DNA of 64,000 nt. Origin: a virus. The position numbers and the translations under genes are program-made. Under the pieces are notes generated by a model. That model had not been told where the DNA came from, did not search any database, and saw nothing but the letters and a program-made list of their open reading frames with translations. Shown here in pieces: positions 46 to 63,796 of this stretch (the first letter of the stretch is position 1; each line of letters starts with the position of its first letter). The stretch lies in the IMG/VR virus record IMGVR_UViG_3300021093_000041, positions 1-64,000 of that record. The stretch is one strand, 5' to 3'.

Positions 46-375
46 TTAGCATTTCCATCTCCTACGGGCTGCACAACCTCTTGTTTTTTTACCTGCACAC
101 CCACCAGCTGGAATCCACGCACTTGATCTTGCACAAAAACTCTTTCTTCTTTTAGAGGCTTTAGATCCTTTTTTAACTTTACCTGTAACCGGTGCTTTAA
201 GTTTACTACCAGTCGCTCTATTATACTTAGCTCTACCTTTTGCCGTTAAACCTGCACCTTTGCTTACAGGCAATTTTTCTCCACGTTTTACCGATAATGA
301 TGGTCCACGTTTTTCTAAAATTGAATGTGCTATATCACTACCACCTATAAACTTTAATAGCATATCGAAATTCAT
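46..375 (-). CDS. Small basic late protein (DUF6321-like), probable head-internal protein
   Basis: AKGRAKYNRATGSKLKAPV...RRKSFCARS...RRWKC motif typical of T4-like phage basic proteins; start moved to ATG 375 because TATAAATA lies 5 nt upstream. Confidence 0.6.
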   Translation of the reverse strand: MNFDMLLKFIGGSDIAHSILEKRGPSLSVKRGEKLPVSKGAGLTAKGRAKYNRATGSKLKAPVTGKVKKGSKASKRRKSFCARSSAWIPAGGCAGKKTRGCAARRRWKC

Positions 376-400
376 ACATATATTTATATTAAATAAATGC

Positions 401-727
401 ATGACATCAGATAATCATCAAATTTTTAGACTTTATGAAAATGTAGCTAATTTAGGTCCGGCTGCAGAGTCACCTGTAGGTCCAAGTAATAATGAACAAG
501 TGTTAATTAATGTACCATCGGGTTTTGCTGTAAAAGATGATAACTATGATGATAGACGCAAAGATATGGTGAAGTCAAATCTTTTATCGTTAGCAAAAAA
601 TATACGTAGTATAGCTGAAGATTTCAAAAAACTTGATGATGTACCACCTTGGGTCCAAGAAAAATTAGCAGTTAGTGCACAATCAGTGCAAGATATTTCT
701 GATTATTACGATAGTAGAACAACTTAA
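401..727 (+). CDS. Hypothetical late protein
   Basis: TAAATA(390-395)-N5-ATG401; C-terminal PPWVQEKL...ISDY motif seen in T4-like head-associated proteins. Confidence 0.55.
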   Translation: MTSDNHQIFRLYENVANLGPAAESPVGPSNNEQVLINVPSGFAVKDDNYDDRRKDMVKSNLLSLAKNIRSIAEDFKKLDDVPPWVQEKLAVSAQSVQDISDYYDSRTT

Positions 728-729
728 TA

Positions 730-1437
730 TTATCGTTTGTCTTCGAATTTAAAATTAAAATAATCTATTTCAGTTTTTGCTTTTTTGGTGACAAAATCTA
801 TTAGTTCATCTGTATACCATAACGAATAGTGCTCTTTGGCTTTTTCTGTTATTTCCGGTAATATATATGAATGACTATCTGATACATTAAGCTTAGGTAA
901 CGTCGAAACAGGTAACCCCACATTAATACACACTTTATTAAAATCTTCTTGTAAATTTTCAAATCTACCAACAAAATCCATTATAAATTCACCTTTATAT
1001 GTCAAAAAATCCCATTGTGTATGATCGTAACCCCAAGCACCCATAACATGTTGTTTAAATGTATAAGCGCGAGCAGATTTTTCTCTAATACCTTCAGGTA
1101 AATTAGAATAGTAACTATGTTGCATACTATACTTGTAACCTGCAACTAACCCGTCGTATGTGTTTCTTACAAAAGCAAATTTATAATATTCATTAAAATT
1201 TATTTTAGGGTATATTACATTAAACTGATCAAAAGTAATATGACTATTACCAACATCCATTGGTAGTATATTGTAAGGTGCTCTATATAATTTATCAGCA
1301 CACCAGTTTATTAACATACGCTGATCAACCTGTCTATATTCGCTAAATGCAGCGTAAATGGAATGACCACCCGTTTTAAATAAGTGCTGGAAAATTGTTT
1401 TATTGTAAAAATCAAACCACATATAATTTATATACAT
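730..1437 (-). CDS. Sulfotransferase family 2-like protein
   Basis: HLFKTGGHSI (HIPKTGGTS-like PAPS loop), KFAFVRNTYD, DFVGRFENLQEDF. Confidence 0.75.
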   Translation of the reverse strand: MYINYMWFDFYNKTIFQHLFKTGGHSIYAAFSEYRQVDQRMLINWCADKLYRAPYNILPMDVGNSHITFDQFNVIYPKINFNEYYKFAFVRNTYDGLVAGYKYSMQHSYYSNLPEGIREKSARAYTFKQHVMGAWGYDHTQWDFLTYKGEFIMDFVGRFENLQEDFNKVCINVGLPVSTLPKLNVSDSHSYILPEITEKAKEHYSLWYTDELIDFVTKKAKTEIDYFNFKFEDKR

Positions 1438-1458
1438 GGTTGATACAATTTTTCAATC

Positions 1459-1872
1459 TTACTCTGTATATGTCGACATAAATGCCTTTAATTTATCGAA
1501 AATTTCCCGTGCGTTATTTTTATTGATATCTGCATTTAATACTTCGATTGGCATTTTATTTGGATCAATATCTAATGTAAGTGCTTTTCTTAGTAAACGA
1601 ATTAATTCAACCTCACCTTCAGATGTTAATTTTTCTGTTTCTTCTTGCTCAGGTGGGGTAGCTTCTGGTTGCGGTTGTTGTTGTGCTTGAGCTGTTTGGG
1701 CTGCTGTGGGGTCTAATGCAGCATCTTGCGCTACTGCAGCGTTAGGGTCGTCAGCAGTTTGTTCATCTAACTTATAACTATTAATGAGTTTTTTAAATTT
1801 TGTCTCGTGGATAGGTGTAACAATTTTTTCAATTTTTTTACCCTCTACACCAATAATTGATTTAAATCTCAT
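1459..1872 (-). CDS. Hypothetical protein with A/Q/P/E-rich linker
   Basis: ORF in minus-strand late cluster. Confidence 0.5.
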   Translation of the reverse strand: MRFKSIIGVEGKKIEKIVTPIHETKFKKLINSYKLDEQTADDPNAAVAQDAALDPTAAQTAQAQQQPQPEATPPEQEETEKLTSEGEVELIRLLRKALTLDIDPNKMPIEVLNADINKNNAREIFDKLKAFMSTYTE

Positions 1873-1873
1873 A

Positions 1874-2323
1874 TTATACGCCTCCCTTTTTCATTTTTGC
1901 TGCAGCTGCAGTTAATCTTGTTGATAAAGCATTTAATACATCACCGTATGCTTTTTGTATTTTTTTGACTGGGTTACCCATTAAACCACCTGTGAGAGTA
2001 TTTAGCATCCCACCTTTTGCTTTACCTTGAGCCATTGTATAAGCAGTGTTTATTGCATTCACTTCATTTGGTGTTAAAGAAAATTCCTCATCCTCTTCAT
2101 ATTCAACACTTACACATTTACCACATCTTTCAGTTTCTTCCATTATATGGTCAAAAAGAAATCTAAGCACATCTACTTTATAGTTTGTGCTATCCATAAT
2201 TTCTCTAACTTCTTTAGCAATATTAATCAACCTATCAATCTCTTCTTGATCAAGATTTTCCGATATAACCGGGGTGTTTAAATGCTTCTTATATCTTTGT
2301 TGAAGCGTTTGTTGGAACTTCAT
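1874..2323 (-). CDS. Hypothetical late protein
   Basis: TATAAATA(2329-2336, minus)-N5-ATG. Confidence 0.55.
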   Translation of the reverse strand: MKFQQTLQQRYKKHLNTPVISENLDQEEIDRLINIAKEVREIMDSTNYKVDVLRFLFDHIMEETERCGKCVSVEYEEDEEFSLTPNEVNAINTAYTMAQGKAKGGMLNTLTGGLMGNPVKKIQKAYGDVLNALSTRLTAAAAKMKKGGV

Positions 2324-2327
2324 ACTA

Positions 2328-2897
2328 TTATTTATACAATATCTGTTTACTTTTTACTGTTGTAAAATAGTCTTTAGATAAAAAATTGAGTTCGTATTTT
2401 TCAGCAAATTGTTTTGCTTTTTTAAACCAACCGTATTTAGATTGTTTGTTTTTAGCCAATAGTTGAATTTTATTAACTAATATTTTTATTTCATCGTTAT
2501 TATGTTTCAATTCACTCTCAATGTATAATAATGGTAATTTACCGGTAAATATACATAACGGTAACATTTTTGTATATGTTACCATTGCACTTTTAAAAAA
2601 CTTTACCATTACATTTTTATCAAAAAAACAGTCAAACCATCCATATTCATTATCTTCACAGTTATAGTATAACACTACCTTATTTTTAGTATTATACTTT
2701 ATAGTTTTTTCGCATAGTTGATGTACTAGTCTTGAATGAACAAACTTCTTAACGACGTGTTTTGATAAATTTATATCAATATTATACGAATTTAAATCAT
2801 TAATCGTAATAATACTAATATCTCTTATAACTTGATTTACACAGATTAAACAAATACCATGGTCATCTAAATCTAAAACCTGGGATAAATTATCCAT
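2328..2897 (-). CDS. Hypothetical protein, possible degenerate T4 RNase H-like fold
   Basis: GICLICVNQV resembles T4 RNase H GICLIDFSQI without the catalytic Asp. Confidence 0.4.
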   Translation of the reverse strand: MDNLSQVLDLDDHGICLICVNQVIRDISIITINDLNSYNIDINLSKHVVKKFVHSRLVHQLCEKTIKYNTKNKVVLYYNCEDNEYGWFDCFFDKNVMVKFFKSAMVTYTKMLPLCIFTGKLPLLYIESELKHNNDEIKILVNKIQLLAKNKQSKYGWFKKAKQFAEKYELNFLSKDYFTTVKSKQILYK

Positions 2898-2907
2898 ACC
2901 ATATTAT

Positions 2908-3330
2908 TCATGTATTTAATGTTTTTTTCAACTTAGGAATACGTAGATTAATAATTCCATTATAAAAATCTTCTCTCAATAACACTTTATGCTCAAATTG
3001 CAGTCTAGCTTCATGATACGCTAGTTCCCATTTACTTGTACAAAACATTATAATTTGAAACTTGAACTTATCTTTACCGTATTTTTGTATATCACCGTTA
3101 ACCTCGTTACTTGAACTGGTGTAGTTTTTCCAATCAGTTTCTATTTCTTCACATCTTTTATTTTTTCTACCTTTAAGCGGTGGTCTTTTTTTAATAGTCT
3201 TCATCTGTTTTTTACCAATATACATTTTATTAGTAACTGTATTGGTAATTAAATAGATAAAACCATACTGCGTACTAATAAATTGATTATCAGGATTAAA
3301 ACAACAAATTTCCCAATGACCTAAATCCAT
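2908..3330 (-). CDS. GIY-YIG nuclease (T4 endonuclease II/DenA-like)
   Basis: YGFIYLITN...KMYIGKK; WKNYTSS; FYNGIIN. Confidence 0.75.
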   Translation of the reverse strand: MDLGHWEICCFNPDNQFISTQYGFIYLITNTVTNKMYIGKKQMKTIKKRPPLKGRKNKRCEEIETDWKNYTSSSNEVNGDIQKYGKDKFKFQIIMFCTSKWELAYHEARLQFEHKVLLREDFYNGIINLRIPKLKKTLNT

Positions 3331-3341
3331 GTACTCACTTA

Positions 3342-3596
3342 TTAGAAATATGTAAATGTTCTACGCTGTATTGGTATAATTGTTTTTCTCTTACCTTTTT
3401 TCTTACTTTTTTTCTTTATTTGTTTTGCACCTAACACTTTAGGTATTCTATAATCACCTGGTGCATATGTATCACCGGTATATAATTCATTACCACCTGA
3501 ACCAATGTTAACATTACCATTGGAAAATACAGATCCTGTACCACCAGCTACATTATCTTCCATTATTTTAGTGTATAACTGATCAAATGTTTTCAT
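3342..3596 (-). CDS. Small basic protein reproducing the N-arm of the major capsid protein
   Basis: NVAGGTGSVFSNG...GDTYAPGDYRIPK...IPIQRRTF matches gp23 NVAGGTGSVFSNG...GDTYATGDFRLPK..IPMIRRTF. Confidence 0.75.
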   Translation of the reverse strand: MKTFDQLYTKIMEDNVAGGTGSVFSNGNVNIGSGGNELYTGDTYAPGDYRIPKVLGAKQIKKKSKKKGKRKTIIPIQRRTFTYF

Positions 3597-4102
3597 AATG
3601 AACTACTATTTGTTTGGTATGGTAACATAGTCATATTCATATTTACTCTCCCAACATTGTATTTGGGAACTACTTTTCTATTACCAGGTTTAATATATTG
3701 TTTTTTACGTTTTGCTATTTTATTTGCTGTGTTAGATCCAGGTATTGGTAAAAGTTCTGGTGCTGATTGAAATGTAGTCATTGGAAAATCACCAAAATTG
3801 TTACCTTGTATAACAGCACTTTGATTTGTTTCATTTTTCAAGTTTTCTGGTGGTATTGATTTATCTAACCATGATTTAATTTTTTTATCTAATGGTTTTA
3901 CTCTAATAATTTGGCTCCATTCAGGTCGCGGTGGTGGTAATGGTTGTAAACCATTAATTTCTCTTCGTATTTTTTCAAATTCGTAATCCGACATGTTAAA
4001 TATTGGATTTCCACGTGAGTCAATTATTACTTCGCCTTTAATATCTAATAATGGGTAATGTTTACTTTCTGTTTGCAGATAATAATATTGTGAAAAGTTC
4101 AT
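3593..4102 (-). CDS. Hypothetical protein
   Basis: ORF with 4-nt overlap with the next gene; TATAAATA at 4142-4149 (minus). Confidence 0.5.
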   Translation of the reverse strand: MNFSQYYYLQTESKHYPLLDIKGEVIIDSRGNPIFNMSDYEFEKIRREINGLQPLPPPRPEWSQIIRVKPLDKKIKSWLDKSIPPENLKNETNQSAVIQGNNFGDFPMTTFQSAPELLPIPGSNTANKIAKRKKQYIKPGNRKVVPKYNVGRVNMNMTMLPYQTNSSSL

Positions 4103-4173
4103 AATTTTACAGTTGATTTCCCAATTAATTGTCCTTTATAATATTTATAGAAGAAAAGATTAAAACTATCTCT

Positions 4174-4581
4174 ATGATATCTGGAAAAGAGCTGCTCGAA
4201 AAATATATTACCGAATTAGATGCGGATGTTAAGATAGATCAGTTTAATCTCAAAGAAGTTCAATTGGCATTACCTGGTATAAAACATAAATGGTCGGGAA
4301 GGTTGGTGAGACATAAAATTGATCTTAATGAGCTAAATTTAAAAAGATCTCTCAAACTTACAGAAATAGTAAATCAAATAGAATACCAATCACCAGCACC
4401 GTTACCTAAACCTATTATAGAAAAAAATGCATTAAAACATAGCGCACTATTTGAAATTGATACACAAATAACATATACTAAACTTATTATCGAATTTCTT
4501 GAAAAGACTGAAAAGACTTTGTCAAGTATGACCTTCGATATATCAAACATAGTAAAAATAATTACAATTGAAACTACATGA
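4174..4581 (+). CDS. uvsY: Recombination mediator UvsY-like
   Basis: Size, helical character, D..ID..NL...KHKW pattern, directly upstream of uvsW. Confidence 0.7.
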   Translation: MISGKELLEKYITELDADVKIDQFNLKEVQLALPGIKHKWSGRLVRHKIDLNELNLKRSLKLTEIVNQIEYQSPAPLPKPIIEKNALKHSALFEIDTQITYTKLIIEFLEKTEKTLSSMTFDISNIVKIITIETT

Positions 4582-6032
4582 TTGAGTTTAGCTACGATCA
4601 AGGGAATAAACGTGCAGTAATTACCGGTGATGATGATGTTGTAGCACGGGTAAGAGAATATTTTTCGTACGAAAACCCTGGTGCTAAATTTGCTCGTAGA
4701 ATAGGTAGATTTATACCTGAGAGAACCTATTTAATTACACCTACATGTAGGTTTGATGAAGGTTTAACATATACAATAAAAGATTATATTGAAAAAGAGT
4801 TTAATGGTGTATCAATTAGTGTTTCTCAAGAACTTGAAACTAGGTTAAAACCCAAATTTATAGATAATCTTTCAACTGAATTGACTTTAAAGTTGCGTGA
4901 TTATCAGAAAGATATTGTTAATTCTTGTCTTCAACATGGTAGAGGAGTTGTGTTATTGGCTACCGCAGGTGGCAAAACTTTAACATTTGCTACACTGCTT
5001 GAAAATCTATATCAGCTTATAGATAAAAAAGATATATGGAAGGTACTTGTAGTTGTTCCAGATTTAGGTCTTGTAAATCAAACGTACGATGATTTTGTGA
5101 AGTATGGTGTAAACTTTACGTTTTCAAAATGGACTGGTAACAATGAGTTAAATTTAGGTTCAAACGTAATTATTGCTAATTTAGGTATTTTACAAAGTAA
5201 AAATACCGATACTGAATGGATAAAATATGTCGATACTCTTATTATAGATGAGGTGCATAAATTACGTAAAGATAATAAGATTAACAAATTAATAAAATCA
5301 GTTAAAACAGTCCACAAGTTTGGATTTACAGGTACATTGCCTGAAGAATTACCTGATCAATATAACATAATAGGTAAAATTGGCTCGGTGTTGTATGAAA
5401 AACGTAGTTACGAATTACGAGATGATAAGTATATAACTACTGCTGAAGCATTAATTTTTAATATTTCATATAATATATTACCAAATTATGGTTCTATGGA
5501 TTTGGTAGACCCGGGAGTGTGGTATAGAGCTGAACAAGAATTTATTACCGGTAATATATTTAGAAATCAGCTTATTGGTAAGTTTTGTAACGGTATTAAA
5601 AATAATACTCTTATACTTGTAGATTTAATTAAACATGGCGAAACAATATTTTCCACACTTAAGGAAATGTGCCCATCTAAACAGGTGTTTTTTATACAAG
5701 GTGAAGTTGAAGTAAGTGAACGAGATAAAGTTAAACAAATGATGGAGCAGCAAGATAATATCATTTGTATAGCAATAAGTAAAATATTTAGTACCGGTAT
5801 TAGTATTAATAACATACACTACATTATATTTGCAAGCGGTGGTAAAGCGAAAGTTAAAATACTGCAAAGTATCGGTAGGGGTTTACGGTTACATGAAAAT
5901 AAAAATAAATTAGTGTTAGTTGATATAGCAGATCAGCTTAAATATGGTGGTGACCATTCAGATCGTAGACTTGAATTATATAAAAACGAGCGTATATTAG
6001 TTAAGACACACAATTTTCAGGAAAAAATATGA
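4578..6032 (+). CDS. uvsW: UvsW-like SF2 DNA helicase
   Basis: LRDYQ, ATAGGKT, DEVH, GFTGT, QSIGRGLR motifs. Confidence 0.92.
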   Translation: MIEFSYDQGNKRAVITGDDDVVARVREYFSYENPGAKFARRIGRFIPERTYLITPTCRFDEGLTYTIKDYIEKEFNGVSISVSQELETRLKPKFIDNLSTELTLKLRDYQKDIVNSCLQHGRGVVLLATAGGKTLTFATLLENLYQLIDKKDIWKVLVVVPDLGLVNQTYDDFVKYGVNFTFSKWTGNNELNLGSNVIIANLGILQSKNTDTEWIKYVDTLIIDEVHKLRKDNKINKLIKSVKTVHKFGFTGTLPEELPDQYNIIGKIGSVLYEKRSYELRDDKYITTAEALIFNISYNILPNYGSMDLVDPGVWYRAEQEFITGNIFRNQLIGKFCNGIKNNTLILVDLIKHGETIFSTLKEMCPSKQVFFIQGEVEVSERDKVKQMMEQQDNIICIAISKIFSTGISINNIHYIIFASGGKAKVKILQSIGRGLRLHENKNKLVLVDIADQLKYGGDHSDRRLELYKNERILVKTHNFQEKI

Positions 6033-59516: not shown

Positions 59517-60458
59517 ATGGCTGAAATTGATAATACAAATGTATCAAAAGTGTTAGGACGTATTGTAGATTACCCTCAAAACTACGATAAGAGTATCCTA
59601 GTACGTGAACCTAGACAAAGTAATAGAGTTCATTTAAACATTGCTGACGACATACCACCTTTTATAGGGTATGATGTGTGGAATGCATATGAGGTGAGTG
59701 CATTAACAATCAAAGGCTTACCTGTTGCAGGTATACTTAAAATTGTTTACAAAGCAACTAATAATTATATTGTTGAGAGTAAAAGTTTGAAGCTCTACCT
59801 TAACAGTTTTAATATGTTTAAAGTCGGTGAGACTTCTGAACAAACAATTTACTTTATTGAAAAAACTGTTGAGGCTGATCTATCTACATTGTTGGAAACA
59901 ACAGTTAAGTGTAGATTTTATACTACCACTGAGGTTAATAATTTTATTAAAAATGGTTATGAAATGGATCATTGTTGGCATGCATTTCCAACAATTGAAA
60001 ACCGTTTTAATTTGGATGATGTGGAAATTACTCAATTTCAAGAAGATAAAACTTTACTAACATCTATGTTTCAGTATAAAAGTGCTGAACCTAAATCATT
60101 ACCTATACAAGCATATCATAGTAGTTTACTCAAGAGTAACTGCAGAGTTACACGTCAACCTGATTGGGGTGATGTCTTTATTGAAATGCAAGCACAAGAT
60201 GCAATCGATCCAATTGGTCTTGCAAAGTATATTGTATCATTTAGAGATGAATGCCATTTTCACGAAGAAATTTGTGAAACAATTTTCAAAAGATTGTATG
60301 ATCGTTTCCAACCTTATTCATTAATGGTTAAATGTCTTTATACCAGACGTGGTGGTATTGATATTTGCCCTATACGTGCAACTAAAAATTACACGTTATT
60401 GGATAAATCACCATTTGTTGATATAGATGTACCTTACTGTAAAACCCCTCGACAGTAA
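59517..60458 (+). CDS. queF: NADPH-dependent preQ0 reductase QueF (bimodular)
   Basis: WNAYE, VESKSLKLYLNSF, KSNCRVTRQPDWG, FHEE, YTRRGG. Confidence 0.93.
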   Translation: MAEIDNTNVSKVLGRIVDYPQNYDKSILVREPRQSNRVHLNIADDIPPFIGYDVWNAYEVSALTIKGLPVAGILKIVYKATNNYIVESKSLKLYLNSFNMFKVGETSEQTIYFIEKTVEADLSTLLETTVKCRFYTTTEVNNFIKNGYEMDHCWHAFPTIENRFNLDDVEITQFQEDKTLLTSMFQYKSAEPKSLPIQAYHSSLLKSNCRVTRQPDWGDVFIEMQAQDAIDPIGLAKYIVSFRDECHFHEEICETIFKRLYDRFQPYSLMVKCLYTRRGGIDICPIRATKNYTLLDKSPFVDIDVPYCKTPRQ

Positions 60459-60522: not shown

Positions 60523-61995
60523 TTAGAAGTAAACAACTTGCTGACCTGGTGCGAATGCAACACCGAGATCCTTGACGATGATTGTATGGTAATACAAATC
60601 AGCACCAAAGATGTTGTCAACGACACCGTAACGTGTTAAGAGACCAACACGTGGTGAGAAGTCGTTAGGACCGATTGTACGCTGTACCATTACTGGTATG
60701 TATGGGCAGTAGATAATACCTGTGTCGTAGAACTCAGGGCCTTTGTAACCAAGTAATGCATATTCAACATTACGTGTTGAGCTATAACCACTATTAGAAT
60801 AGAAGCTGGACTGAGCTTCTGTACGTGTGTCGCGGTAAACATTAAAACGACCACCGAGTGAGCCAATCTTGGCGACACCAACTGGTTGTGTGTTTACGTT
60901 ACCTTGTACAGGTACCCATTGGAACTCAGGTAACATTTCAAGGATTGCTGAAACACGTGGTGTGCAAACGATAAAGTTTGCAGAACCTCTACGGTTACGA
61001 ACAGCAATTCTGTTAGCCTGGATTATGATTTGCTGGTAGAAGTCACGATTACGTTCAACTAACCAACGACCGTCCGCTGATGCTGGGCTCCAAAGTGAGT
61101 AACCAATGTTGAAACCAGCGTTAAGAGAAATTTGAACCATTCTCATTAACATTTCGCGGTCAATTTCAGCCTGAATTTCGTAGCTCATCGCATTGGTTAA
61201 TTCAGTGTCGATATCGATACCGTTCATGTTCTTGAGATCTTGCTCAAGTTCAACTGACCAGCGAGCTGCTAACCTACGGGTACCAGCTTCGACTGCTGTC
61301 TTTTCAAACGATGTTACGATCTGAGGAATCCTACCAGTTAACTCGAAGTTAGCAAGTAACTGTGCAACACCTTGATCTGTAGCAAGATATTGGAAATCAG
61401 AACCTGAACCAAGACCAGACAATGCTAATGAGCTTGTACCTGTGAATCTTGAGTCAAGATACTGATAACCAATTTCCTTACCATCGGATTGATTTTGTGG
61501 TTCGAGGTTGATTGTACCTGTTGCTGATGGCTGACCGTCAACACCGTTGCCGAGTGCTTCTGATTCGTATTTATAACGAATGGCGAATGCAAGACCTACC
61601 GGACCTGACATTGGCTGAACACCAACGATTTCGTTAGTGATAAGCTCAGGGAAGGTACGACGGATCATTGGGATAAGAATCTTAGGCAATCTGAAATCAC
61701 CAGTTGCATAAGTATCACCTTGGGCATAGCTGTTTGGTATTTGGTTACCAAACTGGCCGACGTTTACAGAGCCGTTTGAAAATACCGAGCCAGTACCACC
61801 AGCTACGTTATTTCCCTCTGTTAAGCACCACTTCTCTTGATTTTCTAAGAGACAAGCGGTTGTATATCTCTGATGGTCGTCAGAGATTGGTTTTACGTTA
61901 TCTGAAGTGTAGTCCAATACAGGGGACCACTTCTCGAGAAGAGCCTTAGCACGGCTCATATCGATGAACGAGTTATTTGGTCTTATTTGGTTCAT
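60523..61995 (-). CDS. 23: Major capsid protein gp23
   Basis: LLEKWSPVL, LLENQ, GVQPMSGPVGLAFA, ELEQDLK, EIDRE, YCPYIP, TRYG. Confidence 0.97.
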   Translation of the reverse strand: MNQIRPNNSFIDMSRAKALLEKWSPVLDYTSDNVKPISDDHQRYTTACLLENQEKWCLTEGNNVAGGTGSVFSNGSVNVGQFGNQIPNSYAQGDTYATGDFRLPKILIPMIRRTFPELITNEIVGVQPMSGPVGLAFAIRYKYESEALGNGVDGQPSATGTINLEPQNQSDGKEIGYQYLDSRFTGTSSLALSGLGSGSDFQYLATDQGVAQLLANFELTGRIPQIVTSFEKTAVEAGTRRLAARWSVELEQDLKNMNGIDIDTELTNAMSYEIQAEIDREMLMRMVQISLNAGFNIGYSLWSPASADGRWLVERNRDFYQQIIIQANRIAVRNRRGSANFIVCTPRVSAILEMLPEFQWVPVQGNVNTQPVGVAKIGSLGGRFNVYRDTRTEAQSSFYSNSGYSSTRNVEYALLGYKGPEFYDTGIIYCPYIPVMVQRTIGPNDFSPRVGLLTRYGVVDNIFGADLYYHTIIVKDLGVAFAPGQQVVYF

Positions 61996-62091: not shown

Positions 62092-62964
62092 TTAATATCT
62101 TGTCAACTCAGTAAGATATAAACTAGCAACAGGGTTGTCTTGCTGTGATTGTGTTGGTTGTACCGACTCCTCAACTACAACACGATCAACAGTTGTTGAC
62201 GTAGCCTGTTGTTTAGCTTCTTCTGTGAGGCCTTGAAGTTTTTCCTCTTCTCTCTTATCAAACATTGAAACGGTGTAATCAAAGTTTTCCTTTATAAAGT
62301 CATATGACTTATTACTAAGGATCTTTTTGATGTAACCCTTTTTATCGTCTGACAAGGTAGCAGTTTTTTGCTCAAGATACAATTTTGCTTTTAAATTAGC
62401 ATTTTCTTGTTCTGTTGCAATAAACTTGCTCTTCAAGTCCTCAAGCTCGCTATGAGCTTCATTTATTTGATTCTTACCATCCAAAATTGCTTCACGTACA
62501 CTCTCTTTAGCAATTGCTAAATCAACACCAAGTGCAGAACGTATTGAGTTCAACATGGTGTTTGCACGCTTGTTTTCTACAGCTTGGAGAATTGCATCTT
62601 GTGGTACCAATTTTTCAAGATATAATTCCATATAGTCGCTGATTTTTGTAACTAAAGAAGTTCTGAAATTGTTTGCTTCTTCATTTAAAGCTCCCTCGTA
62701 CTTCGTGATAACTTTCTTTAATTTATTGGTGTGATTAAGTTCGATAGCTTCGACCACTTTTTTAAGTTTGTTAGAGTGATCAGCATCTAAAGCATCAAGA
62801 AATTTTTCTAATGCGACAGAATACTCTTCATCTTGTTCATTGAGAGCTTTTTCAACATGAAGCTTGACTTTTTCATTAAAGTGTTGCTCAAGCTTGCTTA
62901 AGGATTCTTCAGTGAGAACTTCCTTAACATCATCTGTGAGTGCATCTTTGATTTCTTTATTCAT
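62092..62964 (-). CDS. 22: Prohead scaffold protein gp22
   Basis: Acidic coiled coil between gp21 and gp23; many (I/L)xE sites. Confidence 0.85.
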   Translation of the reverse strand: MNKEIKDALTDDVKEVLTEESLSKLEQHFNEKVKLHVEKALNEQDEEYSVALEKFLDALDADHSNKLKKVVEAIELNHTNKLKKVITKYEGALNEEANNFRTSLVTKISDYMELYLEKLVPQDAILQAVENKRANTMLNSIRSALGVDLAIAKESVREAILDGKNQINEAHSELEDLKSKFIATEQENANLKAKLYLEQKTATLSDDKKGYIKKILSNKSYDFIKENFDYTVSMFDKREEEKLQGLTEEAKQQATSTTVDRVVVEESVQPTQSQQDNPVASLYLTELTRY

Positions 62965-63124: not shown

Positions 63125-63796
63125 TTATAATTTAGCGCTAATTTTATCAATAAATGCTGTTATTTGCTCAAGAAAATATTTTTCTCTATTGTTTCTTGGT
63201 AATTTAGAGATTTTCTCTTCGAATTTTGAGTAAGCCTCTTCTAATTCGCCTTTGGTGTTTAAGACCCATTGCTTAGATTCAAGTATACCATTTACAAATG
63301 CTTTTGGACAAGAAGGGTCAGCTACACAATCAATTGCTACTAACTTAACATCGCTTACTCTGCTTATACCGTTAGACTCTTGACACAATTGGCCAAGTGC
63401 TCTAGTACTCATACCCATTGTTACACCATCTTGGATTAACGATCTTACAATTAATCCCATTGGGGTACTTAATACTTTAGACTTACCATGGTAAAATTTA
63501 CCCTCGTTTTTAAGCTCCACAACCATGTGGCAAGCTCTTTCAGGGTTAACCTCAACAGACGTTGGGTGATTTAATTCACCCATACTGCGTTTCGTTTCAA
63601 TCATTTCCTTTATATAACGACCAACTTCAGCTCTCATTTCATCTGCAGGATAATATCTTTTATTACGATTGGTTTCGTCTACCATTATATAAGGACCTTT
63701 GATATATAATGTTGAAGGAGAATTAGGACTTTTCTCTTCAAGTATATACTCAAATTGCTCTTTTGGAGCTGGTGTCTCAATAAGTAATCTAAACAT
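63125..63796 (-). CDS. 21: Prohead protease gp21
   Basis: LYIKGP, NRNKRYY, GELNHP, STPMG, GMSTRALG, DCVADPS. Confidence 0.95.
   Translation of the reverse strand: MFRLLIETPAPKEQFEYILEEKSPNSPSTLYIKGPYIMVDETNRNKRYYPADEMRAEVGRYIKEMIETKRSMGELNHPTSVEVNPERACHMVVELKNEGKFYHGKSKVLSTPMGLIVRSLIQDGVTMGMSTRALGQLCQESNGISRVSDVKLVAIDCVADPSCPKAFVNGILESKQWVLNTKGELEEAYSKFEEKISKLPRNNREKYFLEQITAFIDKISAKL

What the first reader, a model, noticed from the sequence alone, without database searches (positions are those of the whole stretch)
3342..3596. Stand-alone mini-protein copying the mature N-arm of the major capsid protein, with a poly-lysine insert
Seen: the 84-aa ORF reads IME|DNVAGGTGSVFSNGNVNIGSGGNELYTGDTYAPGDYRIPKVL-GAKQIKKKSKKKGKRKTI-IPIQRRTF. 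gp23, about 58 kb away (about 61650-61820), reads LTE|GNNVAGGTGSVFSNGSVNVGQFGNQIPNSYAQGDTYATGDFRLPKIL-IPMIRRTF. The shared NVAGGTGSVFSNG is 13/13 identical in protein but differs at several synonymous positions, pointing to selection on the peptide rather than recent DNA duplication. Known: T4 gp21 cleaves after (I/L)xE, and T4 internal proteins begin with an MKTYQEFIAE-type targeting sequence; this ORF begins MKTFDQLYTKIME. Inference: after maturation it would release a free N-arm mimic that could fill vacant N-arm sites on the inner capsid (e.g. near portal/vertices) and tether DNA through its K-rich loop, or act as an assembly regulator or decoy for capsid-sensing defences. I know of no described equivalent.
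Basis: partly seen in the sequence, partly recalled or inferred. Interest (0 to 1): 0.9.

Follow-up and report, generated by a model that had tools for sequence, protein, structure and literature searches.

The report
Mini-protein copying the capsid arm
This 84-residue gene of an uncultured T4-like phage is real, conserved and under selection; it joins a head-targeting leader, a copy of the flexible N-terminal arm of the phage's own capsid protein and a lysine-rich stretch, the same design as the unstudied gene 61.1 of phage T4, so its role can be tested in T4.

Summary
ORF 3342..3596 (-) matches residues 62-115 of the window's gp23 (BLASTP E 2e-17), with an 18-residue K-rich insert. Synonymous sites are randomised: 18 identical codons against 17.5 expected, dS about 1.5. 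Orthologues give dN/dS of 0.06-0.19.

It belongs to a large family: 635 clusters at 50% identity, and present in 3 of 3 complete ~210-230 kb genomes of an uncultured T4-like clade. The gene always lies divergent from uvsY-uvsW, and in five diverse relatives a TATAAATA motif sits directly upstream.

Across 8 genomes the small protein's arm goes with its own gp23 arm (permutation p = 0.0008), although three genomes are exceptions.

Relatives carry the same module fused to cargo domains: an ADP-ribosyltransferase fold, ParB-like, GNAT and DUF5661.

Phage T4 has the same design in gene 61.1, which has no known function, and a cyanophage has it too.

Best reading, at about 0.55: an internal head protein trimmed by the prohead protease. 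Its arm copy docks where gp23's flexible N-terminus docks in the prohead, and its lysines bind DNA.

This scan has reached the gp61.1 link before on other DNA.

No virion or expression data could be obtained.

The parts
3342..3596 (-). 84-aa mini-protein gene, stop codon included
   Evidence: ORF list; 17 small homologues of 68-84 aa; 635 clusters by HMM; dN/dS 0.06-0.19 among orthologues
3558..3596 (-). Leader, residues 1-13: CTS-like, ends I-M-E, a predicted gp21 cut site
   Evidence: F4 invariant and L7 nearly invariant in the family. T4 IPII/IPIII/IPI and gp61.1 leaders begin MKT[YF]. In T4, CTS residues 4 and 7 target and residues 8 and 10 direct processing (PMC9026906). Cleavage is inferred.
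3432..3557 (-). Copy of the mature gp23 N-arm, residues 14-55
   Evidence: BLASTP against gp23 residues 62-107. The YAPGD-R-P core is invariant or nearly so in the family.
3378..3431 (-). K-rich insert, residues 56-73
   Evidence: 18-residue gap against gp23. A basic stretch is present in all family members.
3345..3377 (-). C-terminal arm piece, residues 74-84 (IPIQRRTF..), matching gp23 I108-F115
   Evidence: Many distant members end in a related QRR.FP.M.
61651..61815 (-). gp23 residues 61-115: the mature N-terminal arm that is copied
   Evidence: It aligns with T4 gp23 from about residue 66 to 103. That T4 segment is unresolved and internal in the unexpanded head (PMC9546572).
60523..61995 (-). 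gp23 major capsid protein
   Evidence: Pfam Gp23 E 5.5e-87
63125..63796 (-). gp21-type prohead protease, the presumed processing enzyme
   Evidence: Pfam Peptidase_S77 E 1.1e-28
62092..62964 (-). gp22-position scaffold protein, a candidate docking partner
   Evidence: It lies between the protease and gp23. It has no Pfam hit. Relatives are only 35-52% identical, against 63-80% for gp23.
3593..4102 (-). Upstream 169-aa ORF, whose stop overlaps the mini-protein start (ATGA)
   Evidence: A shorter 88-aa ORF in close relatives matches its C-terminal part (about 80% identity over 79-80 aa).
4142..4149 (-). TATAAATA, a T4 late-promoter-like motif, 39 nt upstream of the 169-aa ORF
   Evidence: The same motif lies directly upstream of the mini-protein gene in L033, L047, L053, L204 and L207. 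The motif is not enriched in the window as a whole.
2908..3330 (-). Conserved 140-aa GIY-YIG protein directly downstream
   Evidence: Pfam SegE_GIY-YIG E 2.8e-32. It is 50-80% identical and in the same position in relatives.
4129..6032 (+). Divergent uvsY-uvsW pair that marks the conserved position
   Evidence: Pfam UvsY E 2.4e-7; helicase domains and UvsW_N; synteny in 14 loci

Best explanation
The ORF encodes a late-expressed internal head protein. It is the counterpart, in this uncultured clade, of the unstudied T4 gp61.1. Its 13-residue CTS-like leader and its copy of gp23's flexible N-terminal segment bring it into the assembling prohead. The arm copy makes the contacts that the real gp23 segment makes there, most likely with the scaffold core or the inner face of the shell. 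The gp21-type protease then cuts after I-M-E, so the product has nearly the same N-terminus as mature gp23. The lysine-rich stretch holds the peptide on the packaged DNA. In relatives the same module carries enzyme domains into the head, as T4's CTS carries Alt and the IPs. Shown here: the similarity, purifying selection, family size, synteny, partial co-variation with the phage's own gp23, the fusions, and the T4 and cyanophage parallels. Inferred: packaging, cleavage, the docking partner, DNA binding and injection.
For: The arm copy is significant (E 2e-17) and is kept by selection alone. The leader matches T4 CTS determinants: F4 and L7 are conserved and I-x-E ends it. A Peptidase_S77 protease is present. 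A TATAAATA motif lies directly upstream in five diverse relatives, and upstream of the overlapping ORF in the window. Three of three complete genomes hold the gene, and 635 clusters match the family profile. The summed own-pair arm score is 810 against 640 +/- 56 over all 8! pairings, p 0.0008. The window's protein scores 152 against its own gp23, 94 against the best other gp23 and 93 against the best other mini-protein. Arm types match across contigs for L033/L107, L047/L040 and, read by eye (L022 was not in the scored set), P0015/L022. The module is fused on either side to cargo. One cargo domain has an ADP-ribosyltransferase fold (AF2 pLDDT 88; VIA Z 11.2, rmsd 2.2 A over 90 residues to Tpt1), and its stand-alone forms carry only a CTS-like leader. 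Other cargo domains are ParB-like, GNAT and DUF5661. The copied stretch corresponds to T4 gp23 aa 66-105, which is internal, flexible and thought to touch the core in the unexpanded head. In T4 heads, the lysines of internal proteins contact DNA phosphates (PMC3012670). T4 gp61.1 has the same design (E 6e-9 against T4 gp23) and aligns end to end with this ORF (E 1e-4).
Against: There is no proteomic, structural or transcript evidence for any member. No RNA run was listed, and the complex predictor was not available. TATAAATA is not enriched in this AT-rich window (15 found, 18.8 expected). In three of eight genomes (G002, G006, G011) the variable part of the arm does not match the phage's own gp23, so strict matching is not required. 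T4 61.1 lies among early and middle genes with no TATAAATA in the 200 nt upstream. In six Straboviridae isolates own-versus-other tracking is not significant (p 0.19), because their arms are too conserved to test. The S-ShM2 homologue has no leader.
Confidence: 0.55

Rival explanations
1. Assembly regulator. The free arm copy competes with gp23's own N-terminal segment for the scaffold core, the portal or neighbouring subunits. It thereby tunes nucleation, head size or the timing of expansion. It is not a passenger protein.
For: In T4, head-length mutations map to this gp23 segment (A66D, A94V, G97S), and the segment is thought to contact gp22 (PMC9546572). The copy covers this segment almost exactly. 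The gene is a core gene of the clade. The scaffold protein evolves fast, as the arm does.
Against: This reading does not explain the universal lysine tail or the cargo fusions. Three genomes tolerate a mismatched arm.
Confidence: 0.18
2. Permanent shell component. After cleavage the arm copy fills arm-binding sites that lack a partner, at the portal vertex or at pentons, and ties DNA to the wall.
For: The clade has a single Gp23-family gene and no gp24 paralogue in three complete genomes, whereas five Straboviridae isolates have two. Its vertices may therefore differ. P1 DarA-Hdf shows that internal proteins can sit at penton-hexon junctions and touch DNA (PMC12810830).
Against: T4, which has gp24, holds the same kind of gene. 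In expanded T4 heads the arm and N-fist lie on the outside, out of reach of a peptide tied to DNA or cargo.
Confidence: 0.12
3. Protease decoy. The protein is an abundant substitute substrate that soaks up stray prohead protease in the cytoplasm. It would limit premature cleavage or blunt host sensors that are triggered by the protease.
For: The protein copies the cut site and the residues downstream of it. T4 prohead protease activates CBASS by cleaving a host loop (preprint PMC12991175). In T4 the protease inhibitor gene inh lies divergent from segE-uvsW, a position like the one this gene holds.
Against: There is no similarity to Inh. About 40 residues past the cut site are conserved, and the K tail and cargo domains are not needed for a decoy.
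Confidence: 0.08
4. Decaying partial duplication of gp23 with no function.
For: None beyond the similarity itself.
Against: dN/dS is 0.06-0.19. There are hundreds of family clusters. Position and promoter motif are conserved. Synonymous sites are saturated while the protein identity is kept.
Confidence: 0.02

Closest known systems
T4 gene 61.1 product (54 aa, NP_049649.1; phrog_1823; long forms phrog_2086)
   Same: It has a CTS-like leader ending in I-K-E, then a copy of its own gp23 across the cut site and the first ~30 mature residues (17/37 identical, E 6e-9), then a K-rich tail. It aligns end to end with this ORF (19/53 identical, E 1e-4). Its function is unknown (PMC1524935; PHROGs 'unknown').
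   Different: The window's ORF matched no PHROG at E <= 0.01, and phrog_2086 found no match in these genomes. The profile comparison aligns only 10 columns. Gene 61.1 sits beside the primase gene, whereas this gene sits beside uvsY-uvsW. The copy here is longer: it reaches the RRTF motif, and the lysines are an insert, not only a tail.
T4 internal proteins IPI, IPII, IPIII and Alt (CTS-led, gp21-processed prohead core proteins)
   Same: They share an N-terminal MKT[YF]-type leader and an I/L-x-E cut site. They are basic, lysine-rich and associated with DNA (PMC3012670). A leader carries varied cargo, and Alt is an ADP-ribosyltransferase (established knowledge of T4).
   Different: None of them is reported to copy gp23. 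Here the arm copy is the conserved core of the family.
Cyanophage S-ShM2 SShM2_188 (286 aa, annotated 'major head protein')
   Same: It starts with a copy of its own gp23 arm (68% identity over 28 residues, E 5.7e-10), followed by a basic stretch and a long C-terminal part.
   Different: It has no leader. It lies two genes upstream of the primase gene.
Phage P1 DarA-Hdf
   Same: These are internal head proteins that are bound to the inner capsid wall, touch DNA and leave with it (PMC12810830).
   Different: They are unrelated in sequence. No capsid-protein mimicry is reported in the abstract read.
T4 Inh (inhibitor of the prohead protease)
   Same: Its gene lies divergent from segE-uvsW. Its leader has a Y-I-A-E motif.
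   Different: It shows no sequence similarity to this ORF or to gp23.

Membership tests
CTS-bearing, gp21-processed internal head proteins (T4 IPs, Alt) | N-terminal capsid targeting sequence with hydrophobic residues at positions 4 and 7 | tested here: met
   F4 invariant and L7 nearly invariant. The determinants are given in PMC9026906.
CTS-bearing, gp21-processed internal head proteins (T4 IPs, Alt) | I/L-x-E cut site at the end of the leader, and a T4-type prohead protease in the genome | tested here: met
   I-M-E at residues 11-13. The motif is kept in most members, and a few have Asp or lack the acid. Peptidase_S77 E 1.1e-28. Only the motif was tested, not cleavage.
CTS-bearing, gp21-processed internal head proteins (T4 IPs, Alt) | Physically present in proheads or heads and trimmed there | not testable with these tools
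   The phage is uncultured, and no proteome or RNA run was listed.
CTS-bearing, gp21-processed internal head proteins (T4 IPs, Alt) | Expression at the time of head assembly | tested here: inconclusive
   TATAAATA lies directly upstream in five relatives and upstream of the overlapping ORF here, but the motif is not enriched in the window.
T4 gp61.1 family (phrog_1823 / phrog_2086) | Match to the family profiles | tested here: not met
   The ORF matched no PHROG at E <= 0.01, and phrog_2086 found no match in G000, G002, G006 or G007.
T4 gp61.1 family (phrog_1823 / phrog_2086) | Direct sequence similarity to T4 gp61.1 | tested here: inconclusive
   BLASTP gives E 1e-4, colinear over 53 residues including the leader. 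hhalign aligns only 10 columns at 82% probability.
T4 gp61.1 family (phrog_1823 / phrog_2086) | Architecture: cut site, copy of the phage's own gp23 arm, K-rich stretch | tested here: met
T4 gp61.1 family (phrog_1823 / phrog_2086) | Position next to primase gene 61 | tested here: not met
   Here the gene is always beside uvsY-uvsW. In T4, KVP40, CC2, Ac42 and RB43 it lies beside the primase gene, and in S-ShM2 two genes upstream of it; in KP27 the 890-base stretch read shows no primase.
Gp23 major capsid protein family (PF07068) | HK97-fold body matched by the Pfam model | tested here: not met
   No Pfam hit for the 84-aa ORF. Only the arm is shared.

The most novel reading that the evidence does not exclude
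The copy of gp23's flexible N-terminal segment is a second capsid-targeting and retention signal, derived from the capsid protein itself and used throughout T4-like phages. T4 gp61.1, cyanophage homologues and this clade would all be examples. It would co-evolve with the gp23-scaffold interface and let phages load varied enzymes (ADP-ribosyltransferase fold, ParB-like, GNAT, DUF5661) into the head for delivery with the DNA.
Probability: 0.35. Interest if true: 0.8.

Novelty: new variant of a known kind. Interest (0 to 1): 0.68.

Why it matters
T4 head assembly is a textbook system. Even so, a small conserved protein that copies the capsid protein's cut site and arm has no assigned role in the papers I could search, although it is present in T4 itself and in distant marine relatives. 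If it is a head component, the inventory of the T4 prohead is incomplete. A capsid-derived targeting signal would then explain how diverse cargo is loaded. The question is directly testable in T4 with a 61.1 knockout and head mass spectrometry. This window adds three things: partial lineage-by-lineage tracking of the phage's own capsid arm, the cargo fusions, and a second conserved genomic position.

Tried and rejected
IMG/VR loci were used instead.
The planned test of the mini-protein against the gp22 scaffold was not run.
- No RNA holder was listed for window 2900-4200.
- blastn and tblastn of the ORF region against isolate phages gave no match. The nearest isolate gp23 is only ~33% identical.
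- Pfam and PHROGs gave nothing for the ORF.
- A single-sequence AF2 model of the L024 fusion failed (pLDDT 39). It was redone with an alignment of the cargo domain.
The same comparison was then made by reading the stored loci by coordinates.
- Homing-endonuclease carry-over was rejected as the origin of the copy. The neighbouring GIY-YIG gene is conserved in place in all relatives, and no DNA-level trace of conversion remains.
- A partial Mantel test of arm against scaffold was considered and not run, because the fast rates of both would confound it.
- Own-versus-other tracking in six Straboviridae isolates was not significant (p 0.19).

Full report
**Observation**

The ORF at 3342..3596 (-) encodes 84 residues. 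The window's gp23 is at 60523..61995 (-), 490 aa, Pfam Gp23 E 5.5e-87. BLASTP of the two gives E 2e-17 with 35/72 identities and one 18-residue gap opposite the K-rich stretch. A search of the whole 79.8-kb record finds only these two places.

The ORF has four parts:
- residues 1-13: a leader ending in I-M-E;
- residues 14-55: a copy of gp23 residues 62-107;
- residues 56-73: the K-rich insert;
- residues 74-84: a copy of gp23 I108-F115.

The 13-residue identical run differs at five synonymous positions.

**Selection, not recent copying**

Between the ORF and its own gp23, dN is 0.26 and dS about 1.5. At the 35 identical residues, 18 codons are identical against 17.5 expected from the window's codon usage (z 0.19). 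The same holds for six other mini-protein/gp23 pairs. No DNA-level trace of duplication or conversion is left, so the likeness is kept at the protein level. Orthologous mini-proteins (window, L003, L004, L005) give dN/dS of 0.06-0.19.

**Family and context**

- A word-indexed search found 17 small proteins of 68-84 aa.
- IMG/VR scans gave 14 further small or fused members and many gp23 genes.
- A profile of 26 diverse members found 635 clusters at 50% identity with E <= 1e-3, and 160 with E <= 1e-10. None of the best 150 has capsid-protein length.
- The phage belongs to an uncultured T4-like clade. It has more than 589 gp23 contigs in IMG/VR and complete genomes of 209-230 kb. Its gp23 is only about 33% identical to that of any isolate.
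- All three complete genomes hold the gene.

The gene always lies divergent from a uvsY-uvsW pair. It usually sits directly upstream of a conserved 140-aa GIY-YIG protein. That neighbour is therefore a resident gene, not a mobile endonuclease that could have carried a capsid fragment along.

In five diverse relatives a TATAAATA motif lies 5-17 nt upstream of the start. In the window it lies 39 nt upstream of a 169-aa ORF whose stop overlaps the mini-protein's ATG. The motif is not enriched in this AT-rich window (15 found, 18.8 expected). Only its conserved placement counts as evidence.

**Tracking of the phage's own capsid arm**

The first ~35 mature residues of gp23 are hypervariable in the clade: 72 distinct versions in 107 loci. 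The rest of the protein is 63-80% identical.

Eight records hold both genes. The summed score of each mini-protein arm against its own gp23 arm is 810. Over all 8! pairings the mean is 640 +/- 56, and the fraction reaching 810 is 0.0008.

The window's protein scores 152 against its own gp23. It scores 94 against the best other gp23 and 93 against the best other mini-protein. That pattern is the opposite of what a single old duplication followed by independent drift would give.

Arm types also match across contigs:
- L033 with L107, including a 17-residue identical run;
- L047 with L040/L039;
- P0015 with L022, a match read by eye, since L022 was not in the scored set.

The tracking is not strict. 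In G002, G006 and G011 the variable part does not match the phage's own gp23, and G006's looks like another lineage's arm. The eight genomes are not phylogenetically independent. Effectively the signal rests on two lineages with same-genome pairs (the window type and the NPPG type) plus three arm types seen only across contigs.

**Modular fusions**

The same module (cut site, arm copy, K-rich stretch) occurs fused to other domains on either side.

- One abundant marine form of 198-214 aa, with 100 clusters, carries a C-terminal domain. With an alignment, that domain folds at pLDDT 88. It matches the NAD-binding domain of Tpt1/KptA at Z 11.2 (rmsd 2.2 A, 90 residues), followed by other ADP-ribosyltransferase-fold proteins. 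An Atlas lead to PARP agrees weakly.
- Stand-alone versions of this domain carry only a CTS-like leader.
- Other fusions are ParB-like (phrog_17560 E 3.7e-12; ParB-like E 2.9e-4), GNAT placed N-terminal of the module, and DUF5661 on either side.
- In some proteins the leader is internal and lacks a Met (P0146, P0197). These are true fusions joined by a cleavable linker.

**Comparison with T4**

T4 IPII and IPIII begin MKTYQEFIAE and IPI begins MKTFKEF. In the T4 CTS, residues 4 and 7 direct targeting and residues 8 and 10 direct processing (PMC9026906). The family here keeps F4 and L7 and ends its leader in [ILV]-x-E. The window has a Peptidase_S77 protease.

Aligned with T4 gp23, the copied stretch corresponds to T4 residues 66 to about 103. 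In T4, residues 66-105 are unresolved in the unexpanded head. They point inward and probably contact the scaffold core. On expansion they are externalised as the N-arm and N-fist, and head-length mutations map there (PMC9546572). The mini-protein therefore copies almost exactly the flexible, inward-facing segment of the prohead state.

Searching T4's own genome with its gp23 arm found gene 61.1 (E 6e-4). It is annotated as hypothetical. Its 54 residues are a CTS-like leader, a stretch 17/37 identical to T4 gp23 residues 57-93 (E 6e-9), and a K-rich tail.

Further facts about gene 61.1:
- It aligns end to end with the window's ORF (E 1e-4).
- tblastn with it gives matches in 1432 phage records, a few of which are gp23 itself.
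- PHROGs lists it with unknown function, and it has no Pfam family.
- A comparative paper lists it among conserved ORFs without function (PMC1524935).
- Longer forms in KVP40, CC2, Ac42, RB43 and KP27 place an N-terminal domain before the same cut site, arm copy and K tail.

Cyanophage S-ShM2 has a 286-aa protein near its primase gene that starts with a copy of its own gp23 arm (E 5.7e-10).

The profile comparison of the two families aligns only the ten columns round the cut site, and the window's ORF matches no PHROG. Common descent with gp61.1 is therefore likely but not proven, while the shared architecture is clear. I found no paper assigning a function to any of these proteins.

**Interpretation**

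The most coherent reading is an internal head protein. The leader and the arm copy take it into the prohead, the protease trims it, and the lysines hold it on DNA. In T4 heads, the lysines of internal proteins contact DNA phosphates (PMC3012670). In relatives the module carries enzymes, as T4's CTS carries Alt.

The arm copy most likely binds what gp23's own segment binds in the prohead. The scaffold protein of the clade is only 35-52% identical among relatives. A fast-moving interface of that kind could explain why the arm and its copy change together.

The rival readings cannot be excluded:
- an assembly or size regulator;
- a permanent filler of arm sites, which is of some interest because the clade lacks gp24;
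- a protease decoy (PMC12991175).

A functionless remnant is excluded.

**Limits**

No RNA run was listed. This scan had already reached the gp61.1 link on other genomes. I reached it independently and then found those notes.

Noticed in passing
window 2908-3330 (-): A 140-aa protein holding only a SegE-type GIY-YIG domain is conserved (50-80% identity) directly downstream of the mini-protein gene in nearly all relatives. It looks like a resident core gene and not a homing endonuclease. PHROGs names its best family 'NAD synthetase'.
   Followed up: partly
G002, G006, G007 (complete genomes of the clade): Each has only one Gp23-family gene, so no gp24 vertex paralogue was detected. Five Straboviridae isolates each gave two matches to the same model.
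   Followed up: partly
L235:1493-2353 (S-ShM2 SShM2_188): This gene is annotated 'major head protein' but is a 286-aa protein that shares only the gp23 arm. Some isolate records likewise call gp61.1 homologues 'major capsid protein'. These names are misleading.
   Followed up: partly
L028, L044, L045, L202, upstream of or fused to the mini-protein: A small Cys-containing basic motif domain (DPKCWKGY...NKCV) lies in frame before the module. It forms either a longer leader or a second released piece.
   Followed up: no
window 46-4102 (-): Several neighbouring small ORFs also begin with M-x-x-F/Y-type leaders that end in [ILV]-x-E (for example at 2323 and 4102), and a TATAAATA lies 6 nt upstream of the 149-aa ORF (2329-2336).
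   Followed up: no
window 59517-60458 (+): A QueF-type nitrile reductase (QueF_N E 7e-29) lies next to gp23, pointing to 7-deazaguanine DNA modification.
   Followed up: no
L215 (T4 111327-114440): T4 has inh (a protease inhibitor and minor head protein) divergent from segE-uvsW. This echoes the arrangement here of the mini-protein and GIY-YIG gene divergent from uvsY-uvsW. No sequence similarity was found.
   Followed up: yes
P0016, P0146, P0148, P0197, P0202, P0276, L033: Many distant family members end in a C-terminal Met after a QRR.FP-like motif (..FPNM, ..FPSM, ..ETM). The conserved last residue is unexplained.
   Followed up: no
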